Shown piece by piece: positions 5,501 through 50,754 of a stretch of DNA of 64,000 nt. The DNA is from Phoronis australis (taxonomy: Eukaryota; Animalia; Phoronida). Location: NCBI GenBank assembly GCA_002633005.1, contig NMRA01000059.1:833150-897149 (forward strand), in the 5' to 3' direction. The position numbers and the translations under genes were made by a program. Positions within the stretch are counted from its first letter, which is position 1, and the number at the start of each line of letters is the position of its first letter. Below the pieces are notes generated by a model that saw nothing but the letters and a program-made list of their open reading frames with translations, had not been told where the DNA came from and did not search any database.

Positions 5501-5583
5501 TGACTTGTTCAGCGTGTCTCAAAAATTGTATCTAGTGGCTTGTAACATCCTGCCCAGTATGGTTTTCGTGGGAGGCACTCGAT

Positions 5584-7069: not shown

Positions 7070-7135
<66 letters not shown>

Positions 7136-7136
7136 A
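5584..7136 (+). mobile_element. 5'-truncated, decayed non-LTR retrotransposon (CR1/L2 group), RT C-terminal half + 3'UTR + microsatellite tail
   Basis: IDLSKAFD, GVPQGSILGPLLFIIYMND, LYADDT, LVLNAIKTKFMVF, YNGLVLPHFNYGILLWG, LQKKVIRNI across frameshifts; C-terminal CTIPSCFVC; AATAAA at 6979, then the tail. Confidence 0.93.
6988..7136 (+). repeat. Compound microsatellite (CTACTG/CTACGA/CTA/ATA)n forming the LINE tail
   Basis: Directly visible. Confidence 0.95.
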
Positions 7137-17424: not shown

Positions 17425-18468
17425 TCATGCGACTTTATGGGATTGCGTGTCTAGAATCTCTTGGTTAATAGGAATACATATAATCGGCTTTTTTACTGTC
17501 CTGCTGAGAGATTGTATATGATTACCTCGGCGCTTTGCTTGTTTCTTATTAACTTCATTGGCACAATCTCCTTGATCTCCAAGCTTTTCCCAATACGAGT
17601 CCGAAGCAAGACAAGCCTTGAAGCACCCTTTGCACATGTAAGGACAGCCAGCACTGTGCTGTATTTCTAACTCCTCGTCGTAAAGAAGCGGAAGGAAGTA
17701 GCCGCCACTGTACAGTTTCCGCGGTGTCACCGTGCGATCGTTGAGGCCTGATTTGTATGCATCTGTCGTTAATGAACTTAGGCCCAAATTGAGCGAATTT
17801 TCTATTTTCAGTGATTCCGTATTCCACGCAGGTGCCGAACGCACCCTTGTGTTGTACGCCTCGCGCATGGCATCTAGTGTGCGAAAGCTTGTTGAATGAG
17901 TATCTAATACTTTTGCATGTGTGCGAACTTCTAGAGCACTCACGCACCTTGCACTTGTAACGTCTACTGATGGCACCAGCGCTGAAGTTTCTGGGTATGT
18001 GCCCGTTTGGTCAGTTACCATTTTCCGAATGTCGATGCAAGGGAAGTCGTCAGATTCCGGAGTAGGTCGATAGACTGATGTCATTGGTCGATGCTTTCGT
18101 AATGTGTGTAAATTGAATAGCTTTCTTCCATCGCTTTTATTACAGCTATTAAGAGCGTCGTCGTTAAGCTTATCGTCACTTGGTAGCAAACCTTTGCCTC
18201 TGATTACTTCATGACAAGGTATTGTTTGCCTCCTCTTCTCAAAATGGCGTCTGCCCATAACACACCCTGCAATCTTTGCTCTTTCCTGTATGCTATGTAC
18301 AATGGCTTCATGAACGTTGGGTGTAGTACTGGACCTCTTAGCGATCCCGATCGGAAGTAGCCAAGAGTTTGCTGATATACCATTAAGAACAACATTACCC
18401 TCAAACGCATTCCCATTCGGGTGAGGAAGGCGAATCTTGTGGAAGATTTTATCCGTTAAGTCTGACAT
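17425..18468 (-). CDS. Uncharacterised 347-aa protein, single coding exon, C-terminal HxxxCxxxCxxCxxxC motif
   Basis: Longest ORF in the window (1044 nt) in AT-rich DNA. A strong acceptor with branch point (ctaattgcttttgtag, AG at 18479-18478) lies 9 nt upstream of the ATG. No TE motif recognised. Confidence 0.75.
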   Translation of the reverse strand: MSDLTDKIFHKIRLPHPNGNAFEGNVVLNGISANSWLLPIGIAKRSSTTPNVHEAIVHSIQERAKIAGCVMGRRHFEKRRQTIPCHEVIRGKGLLPSDDKLNDDALNSCNKSDGRKLFNLHTLRKHRPMTSVYRPTPESDDFPCIDIRKMVTDQTGTYPETSALVPSVDVTSARCVSALEVRTHAKVLDTHSTSFRTLDAMREAYNTRVRSAPAWNTESLKIENSLNLGLSSLTTDAYKSGLNDRTVTPRKLYSGGYFLPLLYDEELEIQHSAGCPYMCKGCFKACLASDSYWEKLGDQGDCANEVNKKQAKRRGNHIQSLSRTVKKPIICIPINQEILDTQSHKVA

Positions 18469-19991
18469 TGCGCAAATCTACAAAAGCAATTAGTCTAAGT
18501 ATTAGTCTTAAAAACCGATTCAAGTATAAGTTGTGCAAGAGTGTGGAGTTATTATCATCCTACACAGGAACGTTAGGGGACATAGATACGACTCGTGCAC
18601 CATGGAATACCATGACGAATTCTTTAAATGGAATAGTGCTTAGCAAGAGGGTCCTAACAATTTCCGTATTGATGAACATGCAGTGAAAGGAAAAGAACGA
18701 CATGCCGCTTTCTGTCATGGCGATTAATTATGTCAACGCAAAATTACTAGTAATTATTATTAGGGCGACAAAGTTCTAATTACCGAATAGCGGAGTTGCA
18801 TAGCCGCCATATTGGAAATGGGTCAGAATGTTGCATTGTTGTTAAGTCGGTAAACAAGTACGTCGGCAAGCGTGGGGGCGAATAGGCCACAGGGAGGTTA
18901 TACGTGTTGTGTGCCTGGCTGCTATAATACCAGTTAGCGAGATAAAGAATTTAGTTACTACCTGTTTCCCAACTATCAGAATTGCATAAAAATGGGTCAG
19001 AAACATCGGTAGAGCTGGTAGCAAAGGACAATTTAGTGAATTATTTCCGACTTCGTGGCCTAAAGTATGCAGCGCTCATTTTGAGGACTGCCAGAAAACG
19101 TATCTTGGAAACTGACCAACAATATTTCCCTTGAAAGAAACAGTAACAAATACTCCAGGGCGGAGGGTAGTAAAATATCTAGTTTTCGCTTGACCAGAAC
19201 CAAGCCAATTTGAGCAATTTTGAGGATAGTGCTTCTGCACAATCACCTGTTCTGTCAGTGTCGACTCAGTTAACGCACACTTTGCATTAACATGCTAAGA
19301 CAAATTCCAGAATATTATTGTTTACTTTCTACAAAATTGTGGTGAATTCCTATCAAAATTCGTTGTTAAATTACGATCATTTTTCAGAAAATTGTGTTGA
19401 AATCCCAGGGCGAAATCTCTCCGACAAATGCGTTGCTGCCGGTCTCGCAATCGTCGATAGGGCTTGAATTCTTGAATAAGACACAACAAATTACCTGAAA
19501 TCTTCCTCAAGTTTTCCAAATAACATCTCTAAGATTTTTAAGTCTTTGTGGAGTGTGGATTAAGTGCAGATTAAGTCCAAATCTGCGCTAGATTGTAGCC
19601 CGCAACACAACAAAAATCTCTGAGGGAACACACGTTGTTGTCCCGTGACGTTTGTTTTGAAGTTTGCATGTGTGTCTGTGAGAGTAGGCGTGCGTGTGAA
19701 TGTCATCAGAGTTGCTTTGCCAGAGTAAATGCGATGTAATGATCTAGGTGTGCATTGTAACCAAAGAAATGAACTCAAGCAGTCAAGCAGAGCGTACGTG
19801 TTCTAATATTTAGCTTAGCACTTGCTGGACTCAATCTGCTAAAAAACGTTCTATAATTGCTTCGGTAAGACCGATATGTCACTCATTGAATCGCCGGCTG
19901 AGTGAATGCGTGACCGTACAGCTATTTTCCGGAAGATTCAGGGTGTAAGGGTACGAATGTGTTCACTATCAGTGGGTCATTTTGACTTTAA

Positions 19992-25522: not shown

Positions 25523-26247
25523 TAAATCACGTGGAACACTTAGCTCAGAGACGTCTTCATAGTGATGAACTATTTTCTGGTGTCAATATATTCTAAATAC
25601 TTTCTCAGCACTCGTCCTACGAAACTCAGTTGCAACATTTTCGAATTCACATCTTTGAAAAGTACACAATCGGTTATATTGTAACAAGTGGTTGAATGCT
25701 ATTCTTAAGATATTAGATGTAAACTGAAATTAAAACAAAACAGAAATGAGTTTAACAATTTCCAAAAACTAGTGCGGGATGCTGCAAAATTTCACTGTCT
25801 TAACAGATGACTCCAGAAATAAGAGCGCAATATATGCATGCATTGTAGTCGTTACAAGCACAGATTTAGAATATAAACGTTCATTCATTGGCATTTAGTT
25901 CAAAATTTTGACGTCAGTTTGGTTAAACAGAATTATTTAGATGTGCATTTTTCTAAAGCACACGTTTAACCCTGCTAACCGATGGCTATTATACAGTAAC
26001 TACAAAGTAACTTTAAGTTTCCTTTGGCCTTTTCACGGATAGAGGTAGACATCACATGTTCATTTCCAGCCAACAGGTGGCGAGCATGTAGAATATTCCA
26101 CAAATCCGTGTTCGTGCATGCACATGCATTATGTTTCGTTATGTGAAAAAGGTCAGCTACCTGCACAGTCTAATACTGTACTCATTTCATCCATTCTACC
26201 AATCATTAACGTGTGAGTATTCATATTGTGTGAAGGGTCGCAAATGC

Positions 26248-26526
26248 TTATGGTGTCACTTTCTGTGCGTCTGGATCCATGATGCAAACCCTGCAACGAC
26301 CCATGTTGTTCATAATTTCTCCAACCCTCAGGGTCTTAGGCCTCACAGGAAATCTCGGAGGGTCATCTTGCTGTTCAGCGTGAACAAGCCAGTACGTGAA
26401 CTTGTCGGAGAAGGAATGACACTCGCCGCGCGAATTACATTCTATGTAGGGGTTAGTGCGAAATTTCTCGAGGCAACTTCCGGGACTCGCCAGATCCTGA
26501 CCACCACCCATCGCGCCAACGGAATG
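26248..26526 (-). CDS. COL4A-like: NC1 terminal exon ([20 protein letters not shown]...[17 protein letters not shown])
   Basis: 279 nt, ttttccag acceptor, TAA stop at 26248-26250. Confidence 0.96.
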   Translation of the reverse strand, partial: HSVGAMGGGQDLASPGSCLEKFRTNPYIECNSRGECHSFSDKFTYWLVHAEQQDDPPRFPVRPKTLRVGEIMNNMGRCRVCIMDPDAQKVTP

Positions 26527-29500
26527 CTGGAAAACAAACACTTGTTACGTATTCGGGAAATGATCCAAACTGATTACATCTTATTGTTGTGGTAGAATAT
26601 TTACAGACAATTTTGTGGTGGGTTGCATAAAACTTCAAAACTGAATAAGTTTAATTGTTTCATAACGTCATATAAATTGTAAAACAACAGCAACATGATG
26701 TGTGTTGACGCAATGTCATTGCAGCTATCAAACGTATAACTCTCAACAGGGTCCAGGCTTTACACACCTATCAGTCAAGTCCGACACTGATCAGTTTAAG
26801 CCTCCGATAAGGTCCGTGCAAACACTTTATCTGTCGTACTTGGGCGAAGGAAACGTGATTAATAAGTAATATTAAAATCTATGCTTAACCAAACAGATCT
26901 CAATACCACTAAAAAACTTCGAATACACGTTTTTGATCCTCACCATGAAGGCTACATACTGGCACAGATTGAGCGCTCAGCGGAGATTGGGGTCAGCCGA
27001 AACGTGGGAAACTGATTGATTATTTGCTTAATTTGTTTTGTAAACATTTCTTACGTGCATTGGAGTACATACAGTATGAGAAGAACAGTAACTTACGAAA
27101 ATATCTGACAATAAGGTTTGGATTCGCACTTGTTTTTAAAGACTTGATATTTGATGGCAGTCCAAAGTAGCGGCCCCTATAACAATTAGCTTTGAGCTCG
27201 TTCGAAATCATAAATGAAAACCAATCAGGTACCGATCGAATGGTAGGGTACGTGCGTTTGATTGTGAAAATCTGAGATTTGGATGTACTTCAGTCACTAA
27301 AGTTGTCTGTATGTGATTTTTAAGATACTCACCATAACAAAACTGAATCCGTCCCACAGCTCTCTCCAACCGTCAGGACAGTCGGGAGCTCTCTTATTTT
27401 GGCTGTGCACGGCAATGGGCTGAGAGGTGGCGTAACAGGCGGCGCAGCGGCCAACATATGGCAGGATTTCACTGGCTGACACGGGCGCCAGAGGAGCAGT
27501 TCTGTTAGTTGACAACCAATAAGAGGCGGCTGTTCGGCTTGCGTAGTAGCACCGATTACGAATACCGCAGAACATAAAGGGCATGGGACTGAACTCCCTC
27601 AGGCATGAACCAGCGGATCCTGGTTAAAAGACAAATGATAGTGAGTTGGTGCAATTGTCTGCAATGGGGAAGCAAATGGACGTGCTTTTGACTGCGAGCC
27701 ATTTCTTCAACGAAAATCTCGAGTAACTCTATGTGGTGTTAAAGCCCTGCAAAGTGCCGATTTGAAACTACTATAAATCAATGTTTTAAGCTAGATGTAG
27801 TGAAAATACATGAAAGAGTATCGCGTGGTCTTACCCAGGTCTTGCACATTAGCTCGACCGTCATCCTCGGTATGAAGCAAGCTGTACCCCTCCCATAACG
27901 TGATATGGTCATCATCACATAGAGGAACGTACGCGCTTTGGCTGTGACGAGCGTAGACGAAAGCAGTTCGTCCGCCTCCTACATAATTCGACGGACCTGA
28001 GAAATTAAATGAACAAAAAAAGATTTGAGCGAGATCAAATGTTACAATAGTCGTAAACATCTAGTTCTATCTCCGGAACAGCGTATTTCCACAATTGCAG
28101 TGTAAGAAATCCATCGCTTGCCACAGCCGACTGAACACTTACTAATGATGGACCGGTACATATACTACCCTTACCTTGTAAGCTGAACTGCAACCTCTCA
28201 CAAGTACAATTGCCACGTACCATGTACCACACGGTCCTTGTAGTGCGGTGGTAAGAGCTCTTGCAGTGCATGGTAAGAGTTCCGCCCCGTGGCAAGTGCG
28301 TGTATTCTGCGGCCGGTAGAAAGGGTTCTACTACCAACCCCGAATCTTTTATCTACCTGCTACTTCTGTGTTTATTTTATCAAAAAGATTTTAAATACTG
28401 AAAGCAACTGGGAAAACAACAAGTTTTACTTCCTAAAATTTCTTCTTTAAATCTTGTCTTCTGTGCGAGTTGTACAAACCTGATGTTTTTGACACGTGTC
28501 CACTAATGAAACTACATCTCACTCCTAATTTCAGACATGTACAGATCAAGTTTTAAAAAGAGAAGTGCTGAAGAATCATTTGGAGATTATAGGAAAAACA
28601 TCAGCAGTATTAGCCACCGAGAGTGATGGCTTTAACCACAAAAACATGGGTTGGTTGTTTGATATGCAATAAACATCCGATTCACTTCACGAGAGGTGAA
28701 CAATGGAAAATGGCAAAGTTGTTACAGAGGTCATTTATCTCGGAAAACGAATTTCATTGCTCTTGACATGACATAAGCAACAGCTTGACATAACGTAAAC
28801 TGAAGTCATTCTGACAGAGGGGCTCACGCTATCATCATACACTCACTTGGCGTTCCTGGGTTTCCGGGTGCACCGGAAGGGCCGGGCTTTCCTGGAGCTC
28901 CTGGGGTACCTTCGCCACCTGGTCGTCCGGGTCGACCCTGCTCGCCCTTTGATCCCTTGGGACCTTCAACACCTTGTCCAGGTTCACCTGGAGACCCCTG
29001 CCTGCCGGGAGGACCAGCTACAGGTACAAACTGACCAGGTTCTCCCTTTTCCCCTGGCAAGCCGACTCCAGGATTTCCGTCACGACCGTCAAATCCAGGC
29101 AATCCTGATTCTCCTTTCTGACCTGGGGGACCTCTCGGGCCTGGATCGCCGCGCTCTCCCTTAATACCTTCCGGTCCTTGAAGTCCTGGAAATCCAGCAC
29201 CTTCGTCTCCCTTGGGGCCAGGAGGCCCGGGTAATCCGAACCCATCACTACCTGGTGGACCTGGGGGACCAGGCCTGCCTTCTCGTCCTGGAAATCCGGG
29301 TTGTCCCAGTTCACCGGGGGGTCCAGGTTCGCCGGCGCCAGTATCACCCTTGTCTCCTTTGGGACCGTCTTCTCCAGGGAAACCTGGAGAACCTGGGTTT
29401 CCTGCCCTTCCTGGTGGGCCGGGCTCCCCATCACGACCGGGAAATCCGTAACCTACTGGTCCTTCCTTTCCTAAAATGACATAGGTTATTAGACGGGGTT

Positions 29501-32500
29501 TACAACTGACATCGGTCTTGCATTATTTTGCTGGAAAGAAAAGAACCAACAATAAAGCATGCATATGATTAAACATGAGTCAATTCAGTTATATAATACG
29601 ACTGTCTTAAACTTTTCACAAGAAGAACATTTTAATGTCTACAGCGCCTATCAAATGCCTTTTGTTACAGAAAACAACCTTTGATTTAAACCAGTTACTG
29701 TTTGAAATTTATCTCAATTATTTGTTAGTAAAAGTGTAGAGAATTTTAGCGCTTGGAAAGAACTGACAGCTCGTTATTGCGTTAGATCAAGCGCTATAAA
29801 TTAGCTTGTCACGGCGTGTCAGAATTATGCACGAAGCATGTCCTGCAAGGAATAACAACATATTGATTCTTTACGAACCCAGAAATCACTTCTTATGTGA
29901 GTAAAGATCTTGGTGAGACCAATTATGTTGCGGGTTGTGGTTCCATTAAAAATTTAGCTTCTTGAACGGAACGCGGGTTTATGGAGAGAGAGTAAGGGCC
30001 TGTTCCGTTGAGTGAGATACTTAAGTGAAAGATAGTTAAGTCACGTGTTCCGCGTGTTATGCCGTGTAATAACTCTTAAATAGTTGTGTTCGCTAGCTAA
30101 TCTAACAGAATCTATTTCTGAGAAGCGGAGTTTTTGTGATAGATCAGCTACATTAGGTGAAGGTAGAAGTCCTCGTCTGGAGCACAGTATACTGTAGCTT
30201 GATGTGACAACGAAAAGATCGCACCTTTTATATGAATATGATTGGTAGTTTGTGTGATGCTCACCTGGTGGGCCTTGTTCTCCCTTTTCACCTGTAGGAC
30301 CCGGGTCACCAGGTAAACCAACGTCACCTGCAGGACCCTGCGTAGAAAGTTTTTCATTTAAAGTAACCTGCCTTCAGCCAAACACACTTTGTCTTACACT
30401 TCTTTATCGGTACAAAACTTGTCTCGACTTATTCAGGTTGAAATGAAATCTCGGCTTGACTATATTGAGACTTGCCTCGATTTGGTACGAAAAGTGAATT
30501 CGCATGTGAGGAGTCTCTTCTTGTCCGGGTAAGGAGCAATTTTATAACGGTACGTTCTTTTAATCAGAATGATTTTTTTGACAAAAGTCAGGTTTATAGC
30601 AGCCATAACATCTCGCGGACTCTCGTTGGTGAGGTAGACATGCACACTGCCGTTTTGTGGCGTCAAGACCGCAAATCGAGTGAATGATCCACGCAGTCTC
30701 GGATCACTTGACAAAAATGCATGATTTGCAGAAAGCATACTCGATGAACATTTTCCTGGGTAAAGAAATTCCGCGAAGAGATGGATTTATGCCTTGGTAG
30801 TTCCATCGGATAAATTCGAGGTGTCAGAAACGGCAAAGAATTGCGAATTCGGCATTTTCTGTCCTGAATCACAATCTCCCTGCTGCCCCAGTGCAAGAGT
30901 GGAGAAAAGATGCCAAACTTTCTTGACCGTTAGACAGATTCGCAATTTTAGGGTTGATCAACCCCAATCAATTCTGAAACCTTTTCTTGTGTAGCAGATG
31001 GCTTTAATGTTCTTATTGGTAACGGTGAGGAATGTAGTGAAACTGATTTTATGAGAGTGAGAAGGTCTAATCCAATTTCCTTTTCGGACAGCTCAGCATG
31101 TCGACGTGGAGCTTCATAGCGTTAATAAACTTTCCGACATGCCGTTTTTAAGCGATCGCAAACATTTTCCCCACGCGGTGATAACATCCCAGATTGCTCA
31201 GTAACATGCGAACGTGTTCACATTATCGACTTTAATATTCATGCTTCTCCTGGGTGAATTTACATGAAAAACATTTTAATAAAGTGATTCTTAGGAATCC
31301 TATGCCTACCGGAAGTCCATCTAAGCCATTCAAGCCAGGTCTACCGTTGTTTCCGGGAGCTCCTGAAAAGTAATACGGTAATAACATTGGTTACTACATC
31401 TTCAGTGGACTATATTAAAACAACCATGAGTCGGAAGGGAGTCCTACCATGGAAAACTAACAATTTCACAATTCTTGCAGGTATGGATAGGTTTAGAATT
31501 CCGGTTGTAGATCTAAAATCTCAGTAAGGAGGCAGTGTGACCTAGCGTGAAAAAATGTCGGTTTCCTTTTAAAAATGTTGGATTTCGTGGTTTCAAGTTC
31601 CACTGGGGCAAATTGCTAGACCCTTGAGTTAGGTCTCTAGCTCCTCAGCTCGGTTTTAACGATACATCAGTAAAGCACAAACATGGTTTCAGGTGATCAG
31701 TGCAATCGGTCCACCTGAGCGGCCTGCGTACTTCTGGTGCAATGCCAGCCAGACCGCGTACAATTATTGTTTATACTATCTCAATAGTAACGGGTCATAC
31801 AAATTATTCCACCAACCTGCAAATTCCTGTGGACAGATTTCATTTGGTTTATGGACTTCAACATTATTATGAAGTTCACCATTTAAGAGAAAAGAATGAC
31901 ATTGCACTACAAAAGTACTGAACAAACTTTGTGATTGATCAATGTTATTCAGTTAGGCCCCGACCTTGACCTTTCACCCTGAGTATCGTGAATTTTAAAT
32001 CTTGGCAGTGGCAATCGATTTCCACAAAAATAATTACTGTCAACAACTATGAGCGTACAGCTCAAGTTAAGCTCTTGTCGCTAACGAAACATAGCGCAAC
32101 ATCTAAATTAGACAGAGAAGTACTTAATATTGATTCGATACTGGCGGTAGGGTGGTTACATGTGTAGTCTCAGACGTATTGAAACTATTCAGTACTAATA
32201 ATCTATCTTCCCGTACAATTTAGATTACCTGTGAATTATCTGAAGTATTTACCTCAGGAATGTTGAGATTACTTACCTTCCAATTTTTTCTAAATGTGTA
32301 AACACTGATGGCGCTGACTATAATTGCAAGCGCAATAAAGCGCACCACATTGATTTAGGCCACTTACTAGTACCCGTCACGTTCCTTACTCAGATTACTC
32401 AAGTGGTTTCTAGCTTTCGATCAGGAAAACTGATATGCTAACATTGCTTTAGGTCAGTTCCATAAGCGTATCCCACACGCGTTGAATCAGTCGAGTGCAA

Positions 32501-35500
32501 TAAGGCCATGTAATAATGTTTTCCGTATTCACCTCCCGCACTACTTCAACAGTGACCTCTGATATGGAAAGTTCAAAAGGTAGGTCAATGTCGACTCGAC
32601 GTCGTTAGGTGGTTCGATCATAAAATTTTACGGAAATAGTTTAAAGTCATAGAATTGCAGGAGCGTAAATAACACTCAGCATGCAATCAGGTCCCAATCG
32701 CAACATCCAGAACAGGACTGTTATGTGACAGTTCTGTCTCAGTTTTCAATTGCTAAATATTATATCGTCTGCAACTAAGGCGTCGATTCCTCGGTAACTA
32801 TAATATCAGATGTTGTTATTGAACTATTTTCAGGAGATGTTACAAGTTCAATGCACAGTTTCCGTTGCTTTCGTCTTTGTTATCTCTTTTCAAGTAATAA
32901 ATCGTTACTTTTAAAACTGTTTCATTTACTAGAAAAAAACTTGCAACCTGACGCGCAAGTACATACATATAGGATGTGAACAGTCTGAGTGAAGTATTTT
33001 AAAACACTGCGAAAAAATGAAAGAAACGTAGGAATTCGAAGCGTATGGGATCAATACTAAACGTACCATGATTGGCGTAGATGACGTAATATCCCACTCG
33101 ACGTTATTCAGCGTATAATGAGGAATAATGTCTCGTGGGATATTATTTCATCTACGTCACTCTCGGTACGTTTTGTGTATTTACTTCTCACGTCGGATTC
33201 ACTCGGCAAGGCAGTTTGACCATCAGGGTAATGTCGGATGACTTATTATAAAGATTTCCTAGCATATGAATGACATGTTGTTGAGTTGGAAGGCCAAATT
33301 ACGCTTCTGGAGAAAGCTGTTTTTAACTCTAGAACGTGGTTTAAATCTGCTGTATTGAGTTCGTTTGGCTCAACACCAACGTCTTAAGTTTAAAGTGCGT
33401 CTTGGATCAGACGATTCAAAACCACTCTCACCTGGAGGCCCAGTTTCTCCTTTGGGACCCGCTGGACCATTCGCAGGGCCAGGTTCTCCAGGAGAGCCGG
33501 GATCACCCTAAAAGGTATTGAAAAACTCAATTCGACTGCATTTCTATGGAATTGTCTCTAGGGGCACACCGGTAGTCGGATCCGTCCGAAAATTCAGTCA
33601 TGCCGTCTCCCATCCATAAATTGAACATATCTACAGAATTGCATGAACATCCGTCCATATAATTATGTGGGCGCATAAAAAAGCAAGCATATCGAGCATT
33701 GATATCTGCCTGTTTTCAAATGGCTTTGCGTCAGCATTGCCTCAGAAAAATAATAATCGCTATTTTAGGACGGGCTTATTGCATAGCACACTTCAAATAA
33801 CATGCTATTCTGGCTGCAGATTTTAAAAGTATCTTACTTCAAACTTAATAATGATAACCATAATAATGATAATGATAATAATAAATATGATGGTAGTAAT
33901 AATAATAGCAATCATGTTATTAAGACAGTGACATTGAAATTCGCCAAAACGGTAGGCACTTTACTTTGGCCTTCTAAAAGTACATTGCAACAACTACACT
34001 TTAAATTCACTGGTCTACTCAACAAGTGTGCCAGCATGATTGAACTTAGATGTTTATAAATTTGAAATAGCATTCATGAGCTTTTCTTCTCTAATACTTT
34101 ACATTTTAGATATTTTAAAATTAAACTGACCTTGGCACCGTCACACCCGGGTATGCCGGGCAAACCAATAGTTCCTGGGCCTCCTCGCACGCCGGGAGCG
34201 CCATCTATACCGTTTAGTCCAGGCTCTCCGGGCAAACCCTAAAATAAAAAGTATTCTACAATACGCAAGTGAAAATTCCACTAGCTTTCATTTGGAATGC
34301 GTTGAGATGCTCTTTCGTCACGCTCGCAAGGTCTGACTTTGGAGATACCAGCTGCTGACTTGGTGACTTGAGAGAGTATTCATAGTTCTTGTTGCGCGCG
34401 TAATTGTTGAGCATTCAAACATGTTTTCGAAAACCTCATTATTGAAACAATGTAAGAGGTAAATTAAACAATATTTAAGAAAATAAAATCTAAAATCATT
34501 ATTTCTGCTTTAGTTTCCAATCGTGGATGCATGATGAGTGGGGGTTCATCAAGTGTGTAATTGTTATTACTTCTACTTCGAGTAGTTGCGGGTAACTAGA
34601 GTGACAAATGAATGACGTTTTATTTGAATTGGCGTCCCAGATTGATACAGAAACGGTGAAAACCCGATCCAAAACCATGCCATAGAAACCGAAAATGACA
34701 CTCAGCGTCAGGTCCTATTACTCCCTAACCTCCCCCCTCCNAGACAGTTCACAAGACGGAGTGCCCCCGAACGCTGAGTCTATGTGAACACTGGATACTT
34801 TTGCGCCGATCGTTTTTGCGACACTCGGGCCCAGTAGTCAACGCCTTTGTGCTGCCCCGGTCGTTTGAGAGGCCAACTCGCAATCGGTGCCGCACATTAC
34901 AGGGCTACCGCCCCACTACATACCCAACTGAAAGCAGGAAGACATCGCAACAATAATTCGTGACTTGAATCAGTCTAACAAGTATATGTTCAGAAATGTA
35001 ATCTGTATTTACACAGAATGAACGTTCGACAATTTGTATTTCTATTTGTATAATGCACGAAGTAAGTAACTTGCAGATTTAAAATCAGTCAAGGATAACC
35101 TATACGACCTAATCATACTGCTACGAATAGTCTCGAGTGCATTATTGAAACCTAGTTATTTAAATTTCGTGCCTCGGCACTCCCGTGATATACTCACGCG
35201 AAATCCATCTAAGCCTGGGGGCCCCATGTTGCCTGCTGATCCTTTTGATCCCGGTGGTCCAGGGAGACCCTCCGGTCCTTGAAGACCAGGATTTCCAATG
35301 GGACCAACTCTTCCATCAAGACCCTAAAACATCAAGCACAAAGTTAGACGATTTTTTTTTCTAATTTGGTGACTTACAACAGTATTTAAATGTGTCTTTA
35401 TGACTATGCTCATACTAAATATGTTACTTAAATTTCATTCTTAGACAGAGTCAAGTTTAAAGGAGAATGCCACCCGATTTAATTAGTCTTTTTACCGTCT

Positions 35501-38500
35501 TAATCGGTCTATATCCACATGGCGTCTTAAACGGTTGACCTCACCTTGCCGAGAGGTGTCGCGTTAACCTGTGAGGAAGGTGAGTAACGACGCAGCGACG
35601 TTAGTGGTTCGTCTGCAGAGCGAATGCCGCTATATTGCGGTGCATCGTTCCCTCTTGTCCGAACTATGAAGCTGCAAAGAAAGCGGGTATACCGTTTTTT
35701 CGACTTCCTCGAGAGCCCGAAATGCTTAGGAAGTGGCTCGCGGTAGTGAAGAATGAAAAGTACGCTGTTAATAGCAAGTATGAGGCCGTGAAACATCTCC
35801 GTGTCTGTGGCTCGGGCGATAATTCTCCAATGTCCACTCGGGCTCTAGATAACGGGGGATAACGACTTCGCCATGTAATAATCTATATTTGTGTTCGTGA
35901 TGTCCAGTCCGCGGGTTCCGAGCAACTGGCGGGGAGTAACAAGCGTTTTGTGTGTTAAGAACTGAAAAAATCGCAACTCTAAAAGTACAACACACAGCTA
36001 TGTTTCCCCGTCTGAATATCACTGAAGAATGATTAGAATTTATCACCAAACAGGCTCAAACTCCCGCGATCGACCATGGTAAATTGGCCTACTGAACTCT
36101 GTAGGCTACGGTACGTTCAAATACCTATAAATTCGTAACAGCGAAATAAAACAACAAGTTTGTTCAAGAACTCGATGTATTTGTAAGGGGTTAACATCGA
36201 ATTTTGATGACTTATTGGTGTAAACGATGAATTCAAGCGATAAGTTGACACCAGTAAGCGTGTTGTGAACGGCTGAACAGACTGAACCCATTACGTCATT
36301 GGTTAATTTCAACACCTCCGTCTACCGCTAGGTGTCAGGTAAAACAACTGAACTTGCTGTGGAACTGCTCGATCTAAATTGATACAAATTAGGTTGTTTT
36401 TGGGTGGCATTCTCTTTTAAGCCCAGTCACCTGGGCCCAGTTGCATAAAAGTTATACCCCGTATAGCAACAACGGCGTTGCATTATCACGCGTCACGTTG
36501 TTATTGTTGAACAATGCACCTGACGTCATGCAGCAATCAAACTTATCCAGCGGATGACTTTTTAAGCTTTATTCAACTCAGCCCAGGTAGCGAGATAGTC
36601 TCGTCCCCAAGCCTCAAGATGGTGTTGATCGGTTAGTCTCAAACTCGCTGGTTCCTGCTTGTCCGCTAGGTGGTAGTGAACACGCAAGTATCATTTAGTT
36701 TTACTTGGGAATTTTTTACACCGGCCTTGCTGATTGCAGGTAGCATTTTACGTAAACAATTTGGCATGACTGATGAAGGAAGCGTAAATGTGTACATAGT
36801 CTGTTATACCGATAAATCGGTGCTTAATTCATGTTCAAGAAATGCGGTTGTGCCTTTTCGGAGTGAATTTTTCTACAGTCACTGACTTTTGTTTACGATA
36901 CTGTCCTGTATTCACTCAGTATGAATAACACACTGGTTAAATCGGCCAGATGTGTGTACATCTGTATATGTATGTGCTTCAAGCACGCGGCTACTAAACC
37001 GTTACTGCAGAAACGAAATATTTGCTGCCACGTCACTGACAAGGCAAAAAAACGTTCATAGTCTGCCATTTCCTTTCTTTGTTCTAAACCTCACCAATGA
37101 CTGCCGAAGTTACATCAACCAGTGATAAATCGCATGCTACTGAATGATCAAGATACCTGGGTGTTCGTACACGTAGGTCACCAGCAAGAGCCTCAAATGG
37201 CTAAACCGATCAGCGCCATTTTGAGGCTTGGGACGAGACTGGTCTACGAGTCGGTTCACCTAGAGCTGACAAATGATGACATTTCGTGAGTCTGCTCAAA
37301 AGTAGTTCAGACAAAGAGACAGTTTACTGGAAAGGGGAGCGAAAGAGATAAAACACAGTTAAATAGAGCGAAAATAGCTGTTTAGCAATGCTGTTGATGC
37401 CCGATTTTTCAACAATTAAATGATGCTATGCTTTCTGCCACACTGTGGGCAGATAATCTTACCGCATCTAATTGTATATGCTAATGTTGGCTTACTAAAT
37501 GTTTTTAAGCCTAAAGAATATACGTACGTCACAATTTTTATTTCGGCAAATACGAAGCAATTATCATGTTGCTAGAGGGCCTACCGAGGATTTTTATTAT
37601 TCTGAAGTGACTTTGAGTCCAAAAAGAGAACTCATGGGGCTCTTTTGGAAACATTGTCTAGGCCTACAAGCAGCACCCTCATTCCGTCGTGGGCTTCAAA
37701 AACATATTGTAGGAGGGTATATCGTGTTCTGGCACAGCGTCACAGTTGGAAGACCCTGTGAAAGGGTGATAAATGACATGCAAAAACCCGTGTACGAGCA
37801 TGCCACAGTTAGGGTGTCGTTAGTCGTAAACATATGGGTCTAATTTTGCAAAAAGTTTCAAGTCCAGATAGAGTTCCGTAGACCCAAGAAGGAAGCTAGT
37901 GTGATCACGCGCTTCGCTTTACATGCATGACCGTCGCTACTTCGATTTTTATGGTCTCACGGTTCACTGAATATAGTTTATGAAGGTGATCGTGAAGCGT
38001 GGATGTGAGCAAGGCTAAATAAAACGATACGTTGTTACAGAAAACGTAGCGATGCATTCTCATGACGCGCGTGCTTTCGACTTTCTCACATGTAGCTAGA
38101 CCGCGGGTAGCCCAAGACCTTCAACAAAACGAGCCATTGTTCGGAACTGAGGTGGAAAATGATGCCTTGTTACCTTGATGGTATTAGAAAACAAGAATTC
38201 GTGTAGAATGCGTTTTAGCCTTGTAGCAGTAGCAGCAAGCCACAAAGGTATACCTCAGTAGACGCGTTTGCCAACGTCAATCAAACGAAGTGTCCGAATT
38301 GTATTTTCCAAGCAATCGGAAAGACGTTCGGTTAATCAATGTCAAACTGTATTGCAAGATCTTTTCACAGTGCCACAGTGTCCTTCGTACCACTGCGAAA
38401 GACTGTACGTCTGTAAGAGGGGGGTGCCACTTCAATCGAGGCAATTTAAATATAACAGAGGTCCGACGACATTTCATTTGATACTGAAATTTGAATTAAT

Positions 38501-41500
38501 TTAGCGGTCTTTTTAACGGCCGAAATCGACAAAATGATATCTTGCTTACTTTTTCGATATAATGTGATCGAAATGCACACATTCCCGAGAGAGCTATTTG
38601 GAACCTCGTTTCCGAAAAAACACCATTGCTCTTTTTGGTGATGGTTCAGTGAGAGTCACGGAATGGAAAACGCAAAGCTTCATATTGTCGCAAATGAGTC
38701 CGTTCGGAGTTTTATTTGTTAGAGATAAAGAGAATACAGCTCTGGGACAAATACTGCTTTGGCCTCTCGCGGGGACGCGTCTATTATTTTTCAGGGAGTA
38801 TGTGAGGTGAACAACGTAAAGAAACGTATACGAACTCGTTCTCCAGGGCTTCCGGGCAATCCGCTTTCTCCTGGCAATCCCTAAAATGGAAAACGGCACA
38901 CGTCAAAGAACTTGAGTTCAGACAAATAAGGAATTTTTAAACAAGTTATTATTAGCGGTTGCTGAGACAACCAAATGGGAATTTGTACATGTGCATTTGA
39001 TGGCTGTCGATTATGGGACCCCTGAGTTATGTTTAAAAAGTTGAAATACTGTTTTAATAAAGTCGTATCCAAAATTACGACGTGTCCTAAAGAGACATTG
39101 CTAATTTAACTTAGTATTCGAATGAAATAAAAGATCTGCTTTATATCTTGCTTAGAAAAATCCATATGATTGAAACAGGTGTTCGTGCTGAAGTAACGTG
39201 GGACCTATTTTCCAGTTTAATCTTGGTTTAACCGAACTTGGGATTTAAAGCCTTAATGCGCCCGCTAACGGCGACTTTCGATGTCAAATTCTCTAACTGT
39301 TGAATTCAAACACTTACTGTTCTGAAACTGTTCCCATATTGTAATTTACTGAGGTTAGAAGTAATTCCTGGTTTTGGGAAACTGACAAGACTGCAATTCA
39401 AATTCGCTGGTCGTCATTGATTGCGTTCCAAGTCGCTTACGAAAAGTTTGGGCTTAAGTTTCCTGTGTTTAGTCGCCTACGCAAAGGCCGTAAACGTTTA
39501 GCCTGTTGTGAACTGGAAAACCTCAGCTCAGTTAACTTACGCATCAATAAAGTCTGCCGCAGACTTTGACCGATTTACACATGTGGTTGTACTTACGCGT
39601 GCACCCTGAGGGCCTCGCTCTCCGTCAAATCCTGGCAAACCCGGGTCACCGGGTGCACCCTGAGGCCCCTCCGCTCCAGGAGAACCAGCGAAGCCACGCT
39701 GCCCGGGATCACCGGCAGGACCTTGCGGACCCTACATGAGAACAAGGATATTAAAAACGAACAATCTCAAGTGATTTCCTAGTTGCTGAAGACTTGATTT
39801 CGGGTTCTGTTGCCGTAAAAGTCAAAGCATAATATTATAATAACCGATTTCGTCCAATGTCATGTTCAACATTTGGAGAGCATCAAAGAATACAAGCCTG
39901 AAGACTGCACGTTAAAATCAGAGCTAGAAACTTCTGATATATTAAATCTCACTTAAAACTTAGGAGATAGACAAATGGAAAATAGCCAATGTAAAATAAA
40001 TAAGCGAAAATGAGTGGAATTCGTTTACAAATTTTAGAAATGCCGTGGTTTTCATAGACGTCATGGCGGCTTGCACTCAAAAGCGTCTTATTGGTCTTTA
40101 ACTACACAGTACGTAGGTGAACTAGAATGACGTCACTTGCCTCTTCGCCTTTAACGCCCTCGCATTGACAGTTGCTTCGTTGGCATTTCCCAAGTTCCTG
40201 AAACGCAATAAGATCAATTTGAGGGTCCTGCCTTACTAAAATGCAATAACTTTACGAAATAGAGCTCTGGTTTCTGTTTACCTGTACGCCGCCTCTCATT
40301 TCCATGAGAAAACCGTGTATCCCAGTAGTTTGAGCTCCGGGCTCCCGTTTGGGAGACGCGGGTTCGACTCCCAGCTTTACTGACTGACAATCGAGAATTG
40401 CACAAAAGTATCTCCTACTCCTCTGAGCTCGGTCTTCCGGCCTGGTGAATATGTGCGAGGAAATTAATGAGAACCAGGATATAATGCGAAAGCGGTTTCC
40501 GGTGCTGTGGTCATATTTACAAAAAAAATCCATGAAAGATACGTGTACTTCTGTACGTTTGTGTGCCTCAAGAGCTTGGTCGTCCAGGCATATTTATCAT
40601 TTATCGCCGCCACCTTTACCACGATAACAAACCGCATAAAGTGACAATATATTGAACCAAAAGTATTTCATATGGTAAAATGAATTCGTTATACAGCCCA
40701 TATAAGCAGAATAAGACGATCGTGCACAATTTTGCAATCTGAGAACAGATGTTGCAAATGGAGACCCTGAAGTAAGGTAAAACTACTGAGGTACAACATA
40801 TTCAACAGATGTTGCAAATGGAGACCTTGAAGTAAGGTAAAACTACTGAGGTACAACATATTCAACATAGTCCAAAAGTTCGCTTTGCCGCTGCCACTTT
40901 GACACCCCTGAAGTAGTTGTCTCTCAAGTTGGAAAGGCCCTCAAAAAACAGTAAATGAGCAATTATTGTGTGTGACTGCCATCTACACTAACAAATTTTC
41001 GCCACTTGCATCCCCCCTCGGCAGGAGAGGCCCACAAAGAACTTGAAATATCCTTTTTTATTTGTTTTTGACCTTGCATTCTGAGACGGGAGATATTTTA
41101 GCCATTCTTCAAGTGTGAAGCAACAAAGCGAAATGTGACATTTAATACCTGGTTACCCTTGTCGTGTCAGTCGTTTTGTTTACCGTAACTCTTAACATTG
41201 AACTATGTGTGAACTTCACATGAACGAATCTTAATGACAAAGATGTGCACGTTGGACAAAATCAGAAGCTAGAATCTTTTAGTTTTAAGCAAACCTGAAT
41301 CATTCTATAAGTCAGCTGAAAGTCACTGCAGAATGCCTTGGTCTGAACTGTAGATTTACGGAGAGTAATTTGACGAAAGTAACACAAGAGTTCCGATGTT
41401 ACTTTTACAAAATCAACACAATCCTAAAACACGAAGTGATCCTTAAAACCCACGTGTTTTAAAACACGAAAATATAACAACTTTTCATCCTATCTTAAGA

Positions 41501-43381
41501 GACCGGTGACTACGCATGATCGCAATTTCAAGAGTATTTGAATGTCTCTCAACCAACGGCTCAGTAAGCGCTGGTATAATGTACAAACATACTTGAATAC
41601 TGGTTTTCAGTGTTTGACAGGCGCTTTGCTACGCTCAAGTTTAGTCAAGCAACGTTGCAATTGCAATGTTCCACAGCAATACATTCGATCACGTGGATAT
41701 CGGCAAAGACTTCATACTTGTACCGGTGTATCGTAAACATACCTTACTCAAAAACTCCTTAAATGTCTCCAGTTGGCGCAGTCGTCTCTTTGATGTTTTC
41801 CTTGACTTTCCAGCTGAACAAACAAAATATTAGAATTACAAAACATTCGAATGAAAAAAACATTGCATTTTTCGCATGCAGTTGGATTTCACTGTCAGTG
41901 GATAACAATAGAACTTTGGCGTATGATAAAGGAAGCGTTTTATTGGATAACAATAAAAATTCAGTATCTGACGAAGACTTTTTTGCATCGAAAATGGTAG
42001 AATTACGCTTCTAGCGTTGGATGAAAATGAAATAAAGTTTCTGACAACAAGTACCTCACATTGAAAATCGACAAAACGTATGTTCTGATGGAGAAAGTCT
42101 TTCACTGCATAGCCATAGATATCAGACCTTTCACAAAATTCGATCCAAGATGAATTCTTGTTTCACATCTGCTGATATCATGGTGCTAACGAGATACTGC
42201 TTAGCGGGGACCCGCTCTGGTGTGTAGCGGGGACACCACTCTGGTGTGTAGCGGGGACACCACTCTGGTGTGTAGCGGGGACACCGCTCTGGTGTGTGCG
42301 GCCTCGAAATGCTTTCCACGCTCAAAGCAAAAGCATCGGAAAGATCCAAGATGGTAATTGCATTGCACTTCTCTGCTAAGTTGGGAAACTCGCACGAAGG
42401 TACTTACAATGTACTACTGAGTGATGAAATATCGAAAAGTTGATAATGCATAATGTTAGCATTCGTTTTCATGGCTATCTGCATTATGCCGTAAAGAAAG
42501 AATAATGGTTTCATATTTCTCATGACATTTAATAAATCAACGCTGTTTTGCATGTTTAGTAAACAAAATGCAATAGACAAAATACATCTGCTTGAACGGG
42601 CATATATTGATTCGCCGTGTACATTCGCATAAATGTAGAGCAGCGAGTGCTTTTAGTGTTTCAAACGTAAAAGTATTAAGAATAGGCTGGTTAGATTGAG
42701 AGTTGGTTGTCCCATCCAGGAGCCTCTCACTCGTCCGAAGATGCACTAGTACGAAGGTGCAGAAATCTGAAGGAGCACTAGTCCGAAGGTCAACCAAAAA
42801 GGGGTATCTGAGCCATAAAACACTAAAATGCAATTTTGCCGGCATTCTACGAAACTCAGTGATGTGTCCAGTAACCATCGCGAGTACCTAATCAGTGGCT
42901 GTGCTAAAAAAGCCTCAGTTTGAAACTTTGGGCGAACGGCAAAATTCACTTCCGAAAAAAATCACTTCCGTGCGTCATCTTTCGTTGACACAAGTTTTTA
43001 CAAATTTAATGATCCATAATTCGCGATCAACAATGGTACTATCCACTTCGATTTCTATCATAACGAAAGCTTCCGGTAGGTGTTGAGAACAAAGTATTGT
43101 CTTCGGTGTCGCACGATTGCAAACGTAGTAATATGTTTGAAAATGTCTAGAGATTGTTTTCAGGGATAATCCAAGGACTTACGGAAGATTCATGTACAGA
43201 GTAACATGCACGGACTAGTACCTTCGGACTAGTGTCATTTTGGACTACTGCAATTGGAGACATTTAATGAAATAACCATATTTTGTCTTACTAAACAATT
43301 TGCAGATTATAATTCACAACTGTGCTTACCTAGCGCATACGCCAAAAAACAAATGGCTAACACCCACACGAAGGCTTTCAT
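26248..43381 (-). CDS. COL4A-like: Short-chain type IV collagen alpha chain (signal peptide + 7S-like + short collagenous domain + C4/NC1), 13 coding exons, ~696 aa
   Basis: Exons 43330-43381, 41743-41813, 39597-39731, 38836-38880, 35198-35323, 34131-34238, 33432-33507, 31310-31362, 30265-30337, 28847-29470, 27835-27996, 27333-27619, 26248-26526. All have GT/AG boundaries and compatible phases and sum to 2091 nt ending in TAA. Gly-X-Y repeats plus NC1 motifs [44 protein letters not shown] with 12 Cys. Confidence 0.93.
27333..27619 (-). CDS. COL4A-like: NC1 exon 2 ([18 protein letters not shown]...WDGFSFVM)
   Basis: 287 nt, cag/GTGAGT; C4 motifs. Confidence 0.96.
27835..27996 (-). CDS. COL4A-like: NC1 exon 1 ([20 protein letters not shown]...NVQDLG)
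   Basis: 162 nt, cag/GTAAGA; start of the C4 domain. Confidence 0.95.
28847..29470 (-). CDS. COL4A-like: Large collagen exon (208 codons, Gly-X-Y with short interruptions)
   Basis: 624 nt open on the minus strand, ttttag/GTGAGT, phase 1->1. Confidence 0.95.
30265..30337 (-). CDS. COL4A-like: Collagen exon [24 protein letters not shown]
   Basis: 73 nt, cag/GTGAG, phase 0->1. Confidence 0.92.
31310..31362 (-). CDS. COL4A-like: Collagen exon (G)[17 protein letters not shown]
   Basis: 53 nt, ttttcag/GTAGG, phase 1->0. Confidence 0.9.
31527..31760 (+). mobile_element. tRNA-derived SINE, same family (collagen intron)
   Basis: Shared core CCCTTGAG...CTAGCTCCTCAG.TCGGTTTTAAC...CAGGTGATCAGTGCAAT. 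Confidence 0.65.
33054..33181. repeat. ~128-bp imperfect hairpin / MITE
   Basis: AAACGTACC..CGTAGATGA..TAATATCCCAC / GTGGGATATTA..TCATCTACG..GGTACGTTT. Confidence 0.75.
33432..33507 (-). CDS. COL4A-like: Collagen exon [25 protein letters not shown]
   Basis: 76 nt, AG/GTGAG, phase 0->1. Confidence 0.92.
34131..34238 (-). CDS. COL4A-like: Collagen exon, end of 7S (...[12 protein letters not shown])
   Basis: 108 nt, AG/GTCAG; matches the 7S hallmark GIPGCNGTK. Confidence 0.93.
35198..35323 (-). CDS. COL4A-like: Collagen exon, 7S-like ([27 protein letters not shown]...GFR)
   Basis: 126 nt, AG/GTGAGT; resembles alpha1(IV) 7S [21 protein letters not shown]. Confidence 0.93.
35461..36416 (+). mobile_element. 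Non-autonomous Kolobok-type DNA transposon, copy B (collagen intron)
   Basis: TTAA|AGGAGAATGCCACCC ... GGGTGGCATTCTCTT|TTAA; THAP fragment CIVPSCPN...[18 protein letters not shown]...LRVC at 35635-35809; homologous to copy A in inverted orientation. Confidence 0.85.
36431..36587. mobile_element. Harbinger-like MITE
   Basis: CTGGGCCCAGTTGCATAAAAG / CTTTATTCAACTCAGCCCAG; a related end is at 7179. Confidence 0.55.
36596..37241. mobile_element. ~650-bp MITE with ~40-bp TIR (TAGTCTCG terminus, possibly Academ-like)
   Basis: AGTCTCGTCCCCAAGCCTCAAGATGGTGTTGATCGGTT / AACCGATCAGCGCCATTTTGAGGCTTGGGACGAGACT. Confidence 0.75.
38836..38880 (-). CDS. COL4A-like: Collagen exon [15 protein letters not shown]
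   Basis: 45 nt, ttttag/GTTCGT, perfect Gly-X-Y. Confidence 0.88.
39597..39731 (-). CDS. COL4A-like: Collagen exon, 15 Gly-X-Y triplets (GPQGPAGDP...GPQGAR)
   Basis: 135 nt, AG/GTAAGT, perfect Gly-X-Y. Confidence 0.93.
40313..40375 (+). mobile_element. tRNA-like SINE head (not a functional tRNA)
   Basis: B box GGTTCGACTCC, anticodon-like hairpin CTCCC-GTTT-GGGAG, degenerate A box and acceptor stem. Confidence 0.5.
40744..40867 (+). repeat. Tandem duplication, 60 bp x2 (1 mismatch)
   Basis: Directly visible. Confidence 0.95.
41743..41813 (-). CDS. COL4A-like: Collagen IV exon: basic propeptide [24 protein letters not shown]
   Basis: Acceptor ttttgtttgttcag, donor AAG|GTATGT; 71 nt bridges phase 1 to phase 0 without a stop. 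Confidence 0.68.
42202..42296 (+). repeat. Minisatellite, 24 bp x4 (TAGCGGGGACACCACTCTGGTGTG)
   Basis: Directly visible. Confidence 0.93.
43330..43381 (-). CDS. COL4A-like: Collagen IV exon: signal peptide [17 protein letters not shown](A)
   Basis: ATG at 43381-43379, hydrophobic core, donor G|GTAAGC, acceptor tttcag at 43410-43411; phase 1 matches the next exon. Confidence 0.8.
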
Positions 43382-43572
43382 CTTAACTGTGCGACGGGGC
43401 CAAGCACAACTGAAACGACATAATATATTTAGGCTTGTAACGCCCAAGCTTTATTTCCGCACCAAGCAGGGCAGCGTTCCCTAGACACGAGAAACCAGCA
43501 AAACTTCGAGATATCGCCATGCCTTACAAGTTAAGTACGTAGCTGCACTAGCTGTCTTCACGAGTCTCTTAC

Positions 43573-50581: not shown

Positions 50582-50754
50582 AGTTTGGTCCATGAATATG
50601 TACCCCTAACACAGCTGTTTGGCCCAAAGATATGCACCCCTAACACAGATGTTTGGTCCAAAAATATGCACCCCTAAAACAGCTGTTTGGTCTTAAGATA
50701 TGCACCCCTAACACAGCTGTTTGGTCCAAAGATATGCACCCCTAACACAGCTGT
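50582..50754 (+). repeat. Minisatellite, 34 bp x~5 (ATATGCACCCCTAACACAGCTGTTTGGTCCAAAG)
   Basis: Directly visible; contiguous units with no spacers. Confidence 0.93.

What the first reader, a model, noticed from the sequence alone, without database searches (positions are those of the whole stretch)
26290..27520. Both sulfilimine cross-link residues of NC1 (Met93 and Lys211 equivalents) are lost together
Seen: [16 protein letters not shown] has no Met where canonical chains have PMSMAP / PLPMMPV, and KTLRVGEI has Arg where canonical chains have TLKAG. All 12 NC1 cysteines are kept. Known: peroxidasin/HOBr forms the Met93-hydroxyLys211 sulfilimine that locks NC1 hexamers, and these residues are widely conserved in eumetazoan collagen IV. 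Inference: the fold is kept for trimerisation but covalent hexamer cross-linking has been abandoned.
Basis: partly seen in the sequence, partly recalled or inferred. Interest (0 to 1): 0.8.

Follow-up and report, generated by a model that had tools for sequence, protein, structure and literature searches.

The report
Short collagen IV lacking cross-link residues
This is an expressed, unusually short collagen IV gene from a separate invertebrate branch of the family that has lost both residues needed for the sulfilimine bond, so its heads would likely pair without that covalent lock; such loss is already described in other animals, but the short branch itself seems little studied.

Summary
Observation confirmed. 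The Met93 position is Leu571, followed by Ala, and the Lys211 position is Arg690. All 12 NC1 cysteines are kept. RNA reads from the same species carry both changes and show splicing and purifying selection, so this is neither an assembly error nor a decaying gene.

The chain is not a canonical alpha1/alpha2 chain. It is a 715-aa, 14-exon collagen IV with only 134 Gly-X-Y triplets and no head-to-head partner within 20.6 kb. Its NC1 falls in a 10-member clade (100/99) whose only named member is from an annelid. The three full-length members are all short. Seven of nine relatives read Met93 plus Lys211, so the double loss is derived.

The clade lacks Asp78 and Glu40 of the chloride switch but largely keeps the trimer-trimer salt-bridge residues. 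The chain most likely forms non-covalent hexamers, with both cross-link loops remodelled (one gains an N-glycan sequon). No substitute Met/Lys pair is plausible.

Paired loss is published for zebrafish alpha4 and ctenophores, and Hydra lacks the bond, so the headline is not new. The short clade is the more interesting part. Whether the animal's other collagen IV chains still cross-link could not be tested.

The parts
26248..43381 (-). Short-chain collagen IV gene, 14 coding exons, 715 aa (ATG at 43381, stop 26250-26248)
   Evidence: 12 of 13 splice joints are among the rows shown for RNA reads. The 35323/38836 joint was not among the rows shown and is inferred from frame, GT-AG ends and the 141-residue spacing shared with two relatives.
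43330..43381 (-). Exon 1, hydrophobic signal-peptide-like start; transcript start likely near 43410
   Evidence: Sequence; joint 41813/43330 and 6 molecule ends at 43410 in X2. Signal peptide judged by eye, no predictor run.
41743..41813 (-). Exon 2, basic N-terminal peptide
   Evidence: RNA joints, translation
40141..40197 (-). Exon 3, 7S-like cysteine cluster C-x4-C-x-C; followed by a GC-AG intron
   Evidence: Joints 39730/40140 and 40196/41742; GC donor
39597..39731 (-). Exon 4, Gly-X-Y; start of a 52-triplet uninterrupted segment
38836..38880 (-). Exon 5, Gly-X-Y
35198..35323 (-). Exon 6, Gly-X-Y
34131..34238 (-). Exon 7, Gly-X-Y with the single helix cysteine (Cys194), 141 residues after the cysteine cluster
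33432..33507 (-). Exon 8, Gly-X-Y
31310..31362 (-). Exon 9, Gly-X-Y
30265..30337 (-). Exon 10, Gly-X-Y
28847..29470 (-). Exon 11, interrupted Gly-X-Y (208 codons)
27835..27996 (-). Exon 12, start of NC1 (first HSQ; Gly in place of Glu40)
27333..27619 (-). Exon 13, NC1: Arg76 kept, Asp78 replaced by Ala (27530-27528), sequon at Asn566, Met93 replaced by Leu
27489..27491 (-). Leu571 codon, Met93 position
26248..26526 (-). Exon 14 coding part, NC1 second half: Glu175 and Arg179 kept, Asp at 187, lengthened Pro-rich loop, Lys211 replaced by Arg
26326..26328 (-). Arg690 codon, Lys211 position
25575..26247 (-). 3' untranslated region (at least this far)
   Evidence: stranded read depth in X1/X2 and an X4 contig over 25575-26228

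Best explanation
The gene encodes an expressed, spliced, short-chain collagen IV of a separate invertebrate clade that has lost Met93 and Lys211, so it would likely trimerise and pair head-to-head through salt bridges alone, without a sulfilimine lock. SHOWN: 14-exon structure and expression; 134 triplets, with NC1 starting near residue 482 against about 1440-1485 in human alpha1/alpha2; own clade; the residue states. INFERRED: (1) After secretion, NC1 selects and registers three chains and the short helix (roughly a third of canonical length) folds. (2) Two trimers dock through Arg76-Glu175/Asp187 and Arg179, which are kept. Relatives with the same interface pattern keep Met93 and Lys211, which are useful only in a hexamer, so the clade likely does form hexamers. 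(3) Peroxidasin/HOBr finds no Met in the first-half loop and no Lys in the second, so pairs of this chain stay non-covalent and reversible. (4) The loss is likely part of a lineage-specific remodelling of both outer loops (sequon gained, loop lengthened by 6 residues relative to the closest relative), tolerated because this is an accessory chain and a canonical pair elsewhere in the genome likely carries the cross-linked scaffold.
For: RNA joints and stranded depth. 13 synonymous against 3 non-synonymous differences in the NC1 exons, with 22% synonymous expected, p=1e-6. Clade of 10 rows at 100/99, window sister to P0127 at 100/98. Three full-length members of 715, 833 and 966 aa, with 134, 92 and 133 triplets and an identical 141-residue spacing between cysteine cluster and helix cysteine. 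7 of 9 relatives read both residues; P0215 has Met only and P0258 Lys only. Against P0127 the core is 87 of 107 identical, the covered part of loop 1 is 4 of 10 and loop 2 is 2 of 20. Interface residues as defined in PMC4878091 and PMC6527180 (passages) are kept at 76, 175, 179 and acidic 187. No plus-strand Gly-X-Y run or C4 match upstream in 43400-64000. The annelid Lamellibrachia has both a clade member (P0215) and a canonical alpha2-type chain with Met93 and Lys211 (P0274), and single COL4 genes beside an intact pair are reported for Owenia and Capitella (PMC12141075 section 4).
Against: No biochemical or structural data on this chain; its own NC1 could not be folded because it spans three exons. 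The group-2 chloride site is incomplete (Gly66, Phe189) and a glycan at Asn566 could hinder docking, so hexamer formation is not assured. The canonical pair was not seen in this animal (no genome). The first Met of P0127 is its called start residue and could be another start codon written as Met, so its Met93 state is uncertain (its second Met and Lys211 are not); its DNA was not retrieved. A test of correlated loss on the tree had no power (5 independent pairs). The tree used LG+G4 without the mixture model and left out 16 distant rows.
Confidence: 0.62

Rival explanations
1. The NC1 of this chain serves trimerisation only and no longer forms hexamers: the gained N-glycan and the lengthened loop cap the interface, so the protomer would be a free-headed short collagen anchored by its N-terminal cysteines.
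For: The only sequon of the protein lies five residues before the Met93 position. Such a sequon occurs in 6 of 30 Met93-lacking and 1 of 163 Met93-bearing NC1 domains (Fisher p=6e-5; 6 of 23 against 1 of 39 after dereplication with P0292 added back, p=0.009). Group-2 chloride site and Asp78 absent. Both loops diverged.
Against: Arg76, Glu175, Arg179 and Asp187 are all kept, though Arg76 is reported non-critical for trimerisation (PMC4878091 passage). The sequon association may reflect general loop divergence, and the rows are not independent. Occupancy of the sequon is untested.
Confidence: 0.22
2. The whole animal has given up sulfilimine cross-linking, as Hydra has, and this chain is one sign of it.
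For: Precedents in Hydra and ctenophores (PMC5395295 passages). The other chains of this animal were not seen.
Against: The chain is an unpaired short paralogue, not a canonical chain. Chain-specific loss with intact paralogues is the pattern in zebrafish and, for Lys211, in Lamellibrachia.
Confidence: 0.08
3. A shifted pair (Lys687 with Met695 or Met698) or another chemistry cross-links the hexamer instead.
For: Lys687 lies three residues before the Lys211 position, and two Met residues follow it.
Against: All three lie in the second half of NC1, and the first-half loop that faces it has no Met or Lys. Met695 and Met698 are shared with P0127 and sit at positions 216 and 219, the latter Val or Ile in 172 of 189 other chains. 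No extra cysteine in NC1.
Confidence: 0.05
4. Assembly error, private allele or decaying pseudogene.
For: The window's NC1 branch is long (0.39 against 0.12 for its partial sister); reads differ from the assembly at many sites.
Against: Reads of two runs carry Leu/Ala and Arg; the frame is open over 14 exons; no indels in the NC1 exons; strong synonymous excess.
Confidence: 0.02

Closest known systems
Zebrafish collagen IV alpha4 NC1 lacking M93 and K211 (bioRxiv 10.1101/2022.08.14.503918; passages read)
   Same: Both sulfilimine residues lost in one paralogue, 12 cysteines kept; predicted non-covalent C-terminal pairing.
   Different: Zebrafish alpha4 is a vertebrate alpha2-type chain of a gene pair with a 13th cysteine. 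The window chain is short, unpaired, has no extra cysteine, and belongs to a separate invertebrate clade that also lacks Asp78 and Glu40.
Canonical COL4A1/COL4A2 pair (alpha121 scaffold; PMC13098435, PMC4878091, PMC6527180)
   Same: Tandem C4 NC1 with 12 Cys and HSQ motifs, about 46-54% identity, interrupted Gly-X-Y, N-terminal cysteine cluster, Arg76/Glu175/Arg179.
   Different: About one third of the helix length; no head-to-head partner within 20.6 kb; no Met93, Lys211, Asp78, Glu40, Asn66 or Tyr189; separate clade.
Single COL4 genes beside the pair in Owenia fusiformis and Capitella teleta (PMC12141075 section 4)
   Same: Unpaired COL4 gene; the only named member of the window's clade is from an annelid (P0215).
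   Different: The paper reads them as leftovers of pair duplications and, in the section read, gives no chain length, NC1 residues or orthology. Whether they belong to this clade was not tested (sequences not in hand; supplement text search found nothing, and figures were not visible).
Spongin short-chain collagens (PMC5395295 passage)
   Same: Short triple helix with an NC1-related C-terminal domain, found in invertebrates.
   Different: Spongins lack the HSQ motif and four of the collagen IV cysteines; the window chain has both HSQ motifs and all 12 cysteines.
Hydra and ctenophore collagen IV without sulfilimine (PMC5395295 passages); Drosophila cation-driven hexamer (PMC10694668 passages)
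   Same: Precedents for NC1 hexamers without the bond, or with a non-standard ion mechanism.
   Different: Ctenophores use a cysteine loop, absent here; Drosophila keeps the bond. There the change concerns the main chains, here an accessory chain.

Membership tests
Collagen IV alpha chain | C-terminal NC1 of two C4 repeats with 12 cysteines and HSQ motifs | tested here: met
   clade relative L001 models as NC1, TM about 0.9 to solved NC1
Collagen IV alpha chain | Interrupted Gly-X-Y domain | tested here: met
   134 triplets in 9 segments
Collagen IV alpha chain | N-terminal 7S region with cysteine cluster | tested here: inconclusive
   Cys46/51/53 and Cys194 present; spacing 141 in all three full-length clade members against 84 and 106 in two longer fish models; tetramer formation untested
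Canonical COL4A1/A2 chains | Long collagenous domain (NC1 starts near residue 1441-1485) | tested here: not met
   NC1 starts near residue 482; human numbering from PMC10694668
Canonical COL4A1/A2 chains | Head-to-head gene pair | tested here: not met
   No plus-strand Gly-X-Y run of 4 or more triplets and no C4 match in 43400-64000; beyond the window not seen
Canonical COL4A1/A2 chains | Met93 and Lys211 | tested here: not met
   Leu571 and Arg690
Canonical COL4A1/A2 chains | Chloride switch: Arg76, Asp/Glu78, Glu175 (PMC6527180) | tested here: not met
   Arg76 and Glu175 kept, Ala at 78; Asp78 in 187 of 189 other chains and in 0 of 9 clade members that cover it
Canonical COL4A1/A2 chains | Group-1 chloride contact Arg/Lys179 | tested here: met
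   Arg
Canonical COL4A1/A2 chains | Group-2 chloride site: Phe/Tyr64, Asn66, Arg76, Tyr/His189 | tested here: not met
   Gly66 and Phe189
Canonical COL4A1/A2 chains | NC1 groups with alpha1-type or alpha2-type chains | tested here: not met
   own clade, 100/99; its deeper position is unresolved
Canonical COL4A1/A2 chains | Hexamer formation, cross-linked dimers, basement-membrane location | not testable with these tools
   needs protein work
Spongin short-chain collagens | NC1 without HSQ motif and without four collagen IV cysteines | tested here: not met
   both HSQ motifs and 12 Cys present
Annelid single COL4 genes (Owenia, Capitella) | Orthology to those genes | not tested
   their sequences were not among the named hits

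The most novel reading that the evidence does not exclude
An old, overlooked third lineage of collagen IV makes mini-protomers a third of the usual length. Lacking both intramolecular traps for Arg76 (Asp78, Glu40) and carrying Asp187, their NC1 heads pair without needing the extracellular chloride switch. In this species the chain has also been uncoupled from peroxidasin and bromide, with an N-glycan placed in the loop that used to carry the cross-link, giving a reversible short strut in a tissue-restricted matrix.
Probability: 0.2. Interest if true: 0.7.

Novelty: new variant of a known kind. Interest (0 to 1): 0.4.

Why it matters
The sulfilimine bond and the chloride switch are presented as near-universal features of collagen IV from cnidarians onward. 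One more chain lacking the two residues adds little, since zebrafish alpha4 and ctenophores already show it and Hydra lacks the bond. What would matter is the clade. It has members with both residues, with one, and with neither, on a shared background without Asp78 and Glu40. That is a natural series for testing what chloride and the covalent bond each contribute to hexamer stability. It also suggests that single COL4 genes in some invertebrates are a conserved short-chain family rather than duplication leftovers.

Tried and rejected
An apparent Ig-like open frame at 28176-28350 between helix and NC1 was considered as an extra exon; RNA joints skip it (27994/28845). A donor-like look-alike at about 26940-27010 has no reads. 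No whole genome is held, so the canonical pair and peroxidasin could not be sought. The lineage of the window's animal was not determined: no other diagnostic gene among 9 frames scanned, and no usable Atlas hit for the 350-aa frame at 17425-18477. The Atlas search with P0003 gave only scores under 0.9. The run search listed no indexed RNA holder; the raw-read runs were laid instead. A metagenome scan with the last exon found nothing; the scan with P0127 gave 4 loci, one in the clade (L001), and not P0127's own DNA. Correlated-loss test: 5 independent pairs, no power, and the pattern-based scoring mis-scored at least P0127, P0021, P0192 and P0002; no conclusion drawn. An early note placing Glu175 at the window's Lys644 was wrong and was corrected. 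No complex prediction was run: a hexamer exceeds the size limit and a relative's trimer would likely pass by likeness to solved structures. Eight literature searches listed no paper describing this short clade. The library lacks most subscription papers, and figures and bioRxiv supplements were not visible, so prior description (for example in Fig. 3 or S1 of PMC12141075) is not excluded.

Full report
Observation. Searches of these exons against solved structures hit only collagen IV NC1 chains (13 distinct sequences each). Their alignments place the window's L-A where alpha2 has M-M, and its R where alpha1 and alpha2 have the K of T-L-K-A-G. In a 198-row alignment numbered on a bird alpha1 chain (Met-to-Lys spacing 118, as expected), Leu571 falls in the Met93 column and Arg690 in the Lys211 column. 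Twelve cysteines are present. Of the 198 rows, 162 keep both residues, 26 neither, 4 Met only and 6 Lys only; 132 of the 329 proteins then held were left out as partial. After dereplication to 65 rows the counts are 36, 20, 4 and 5, so double loss is common among divergent paralogues.

The gene is real and expressed. Raw RNA reads of runs X1 and X2 (same species label) are stranded for a minus-strand transcript, and 12 of the 13 introns appear among the joints shown. The thirteenth was not among the rows shown and is inferred. The spliced frame is open for 715 codons from 43381 to the stop at 26250-26248, with one GC-AG intron. At the two codons of interest the only listed variant is synonymous. 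Of 16 listed coding differences in the three NC1 exons, 13 are synonymous where 22% would be expected (p=1e-6). Expression is uneven: 251 reads in 1,844 million letters (X1), 220 in 1,641 (X2) and 6 in 1,603 (X3) of the same study, while X3 still laid 2,774 reads on the longer stretch, mostly on repeats. That suggests tissue- or state-restricted expression, but what the samples are is not known.

Anatomy. The protein has a signal-peptide-like start, a basic peptide, a C-x4-C-x-C cluster, 134 Gly-X-Y triplets in 9 segments with one cysteine, and NC1 from about residue 482. In human alpha1 and alpha2, NC1 starts at 1441 and 1485 (PMC10694668, passage), so the helix is about a third of canonical length. 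No Gly-X-Y run or C4 match lies on the plus strand in the 20.6 kb upstream, so there is no close head-to-head partner.

Relatives. Three homologue searches, one HMMER scan and two metagenome scans gave nine relatives that group with the window chain at 100/99 support. The tree had 50 rows, used LG+G4 and left out 16 distant rows; a 65-row quick tree without L001 gave the same clade at 99. The window chain is sister to the partial P0127 (100/98). The only named member is P0215 from the annelid Lamellibrachia satsuma, which also has a canonical alpha2-type chain, P0274. The other members are unnamed, and the window's own lineage was not determined. The two other full-length members, L001 (833 aa) and P0183 (966 aa), are also short, with 92 and 133 triplets, and share an exact 141-residue spacing between the cysteine cluster and the helix cysteine. 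L001's NC1 models at pLDDT 87.8 and matches solved NC1 at TM about 0.9. Seven of the nine relatives read Met93 and Lys211; P0215 has Met with Arg211, and P0258 has Leu with Lys. The double loss is therefore most simply derived in the window's lineage. One caveat: P0127's Met93 is its called start residue and might stand for another start codon.

Interface residues. Using the positions defined in PMC4878091 and PMC6527180 (passages), the window chain keeps Arg76, Glu175 and Arg179 and has Asp at 187. It lacks Asp78 and Glu40, the two residues that hold Arg76 in its off state, and it lacks Asn66 and Tyr189 of the group-2 chloride site. Part of this is clade-wide. Asp78 is present in 187 of 189 other chains and in none of the 9 clade members that cover it. 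Gly replaces Glu40 in 8 of 8, and Asp187 is present in 10 of 10 against 11 of 189 elsewhere. Relatives with this pattern keep Met93 and Lys211, which can react only in an assembled hexamer, so the clade likely forms hexamers without the standard switch. Whether that makes assembly chloride-independent is a prediction.

What changed in this lineage. Against P0127 the core is 87 of 107 identical, but the covered part of the Met loop is 4 of 10 and the Lys loop 2 of 20, with six extra residues. The protein's only N-glycan sequon (Asn566) lies in the Met loop. Such a sequon occurs in 6 of 30 Met93-lacking and 1 of 163 Met93-bearing chains. This is a lead only, since rows are related and divergent loops gain sequons more easily. 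The bond joins the first-half blade of one trimer to the second-half blade of the other (PMC13098435, section 7); the window's first-half loop has no Met or Lys; and Met695 and Met698 are shared with P0127.

Most likely working. Shown: structure, expression, clade and residue states. Inferred: NC1-directed trimerisation, non-covalent head-to-head pairing through the kept salt bridges, no sulfilimine from this chain, and an accessory role beside a canonical pair that was not seen here (0.62). Rivals: trimer only with a capped head (0.22), whole-animal loss (0.08), substitute cross-link (0.05), artefact (0.02).

What is known. Zebrafish alpha4 lacks both residues with the same predicted consequence (bioRxiv 10.1101/2022.08.14.503918, passages; pointed to by an earlier scan note). 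Ctenophores lack both residues and Hydra lacks the bond (PMC5395295, passages). Amphioxus paralogues among the hits lack both as well. Single COL4 genes beside the pair are mentioned for Owenia and Capitella and read as duplication leftovers (PMC12141075, section 4 and passages; supplement text without hits; figures not visible). The Nematostella matrisome names two type IV chains (PMC12549020, passages and supplement rows). Passages of PMC6824150 and PMC10656227 added nothing decisive. PMC13098435 was read in its first part, in passages and in section 7. Eight searches listed no description of this short clade, within the limits of the library.

Verdict. The added value is the short-chain clade without the chloride-switch traps, in which cross-link residues are kept, half lost or fully lost. 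Novelty: new variant of a known kind. Interest 0.4.

Noticed in passing
window 17425-18477 (-): 350-codon open frame with no Pfam match and no usable Atlas hit; cysteine-containing C-terminal part; nature unknown.
   Followed up: partly
window 5546-6796 (+): Reverse-transcriptase (RVT_1) fragments in several frames, likely a broken LINE-type element.
   Followed up: partly
window 6841-7316: Long trinucleotide-type microsatellite giving low-complexity frames.
   Followed up: no
window 40140-40141 (-): GC-AG intron after the cysteine-cluster exon, supported by 28 and 22 reads.
   Followed up: yes
window 35300-37200 and 32200-34050: Intronic repeats drawing many partly matching reads from both strands; likely dispersed transposon pieces.
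   Followed up: no
window 50590-50750 and 42215-42290: Short tandem arrays seen by eye in the sequence; no repeat finder run.
   Followed up: no
L001:93-2621; P0183: Two clade members share a long acidic, Pro/Tyr-rich N-terminal extension with a common motif that the window chain lacks, suggesting two sub-types of the short clade.
   Followed up: partly
L002:1-1293, L003:810-1901, L004:33-827: Collagen IV-like NC1 sequences that keep Met-Met in the first loop but have Ser-Arg, Ser-Ala or Ser-Glu where T-L-K is expected, with a Lys two or three residues later; not placed in a tree.
   Followed up: no
P0058, P0170, P0075, P0202, P0203 (Branchiostoma): Amphioxus collagen IV-like paralogues lacking both Met93 and Lys211.
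   Followed up: partly
P0214: A protein labelled as from an Oligoflexia bacterium carries C4-like repeats; origin not checked.
   Followed up: no
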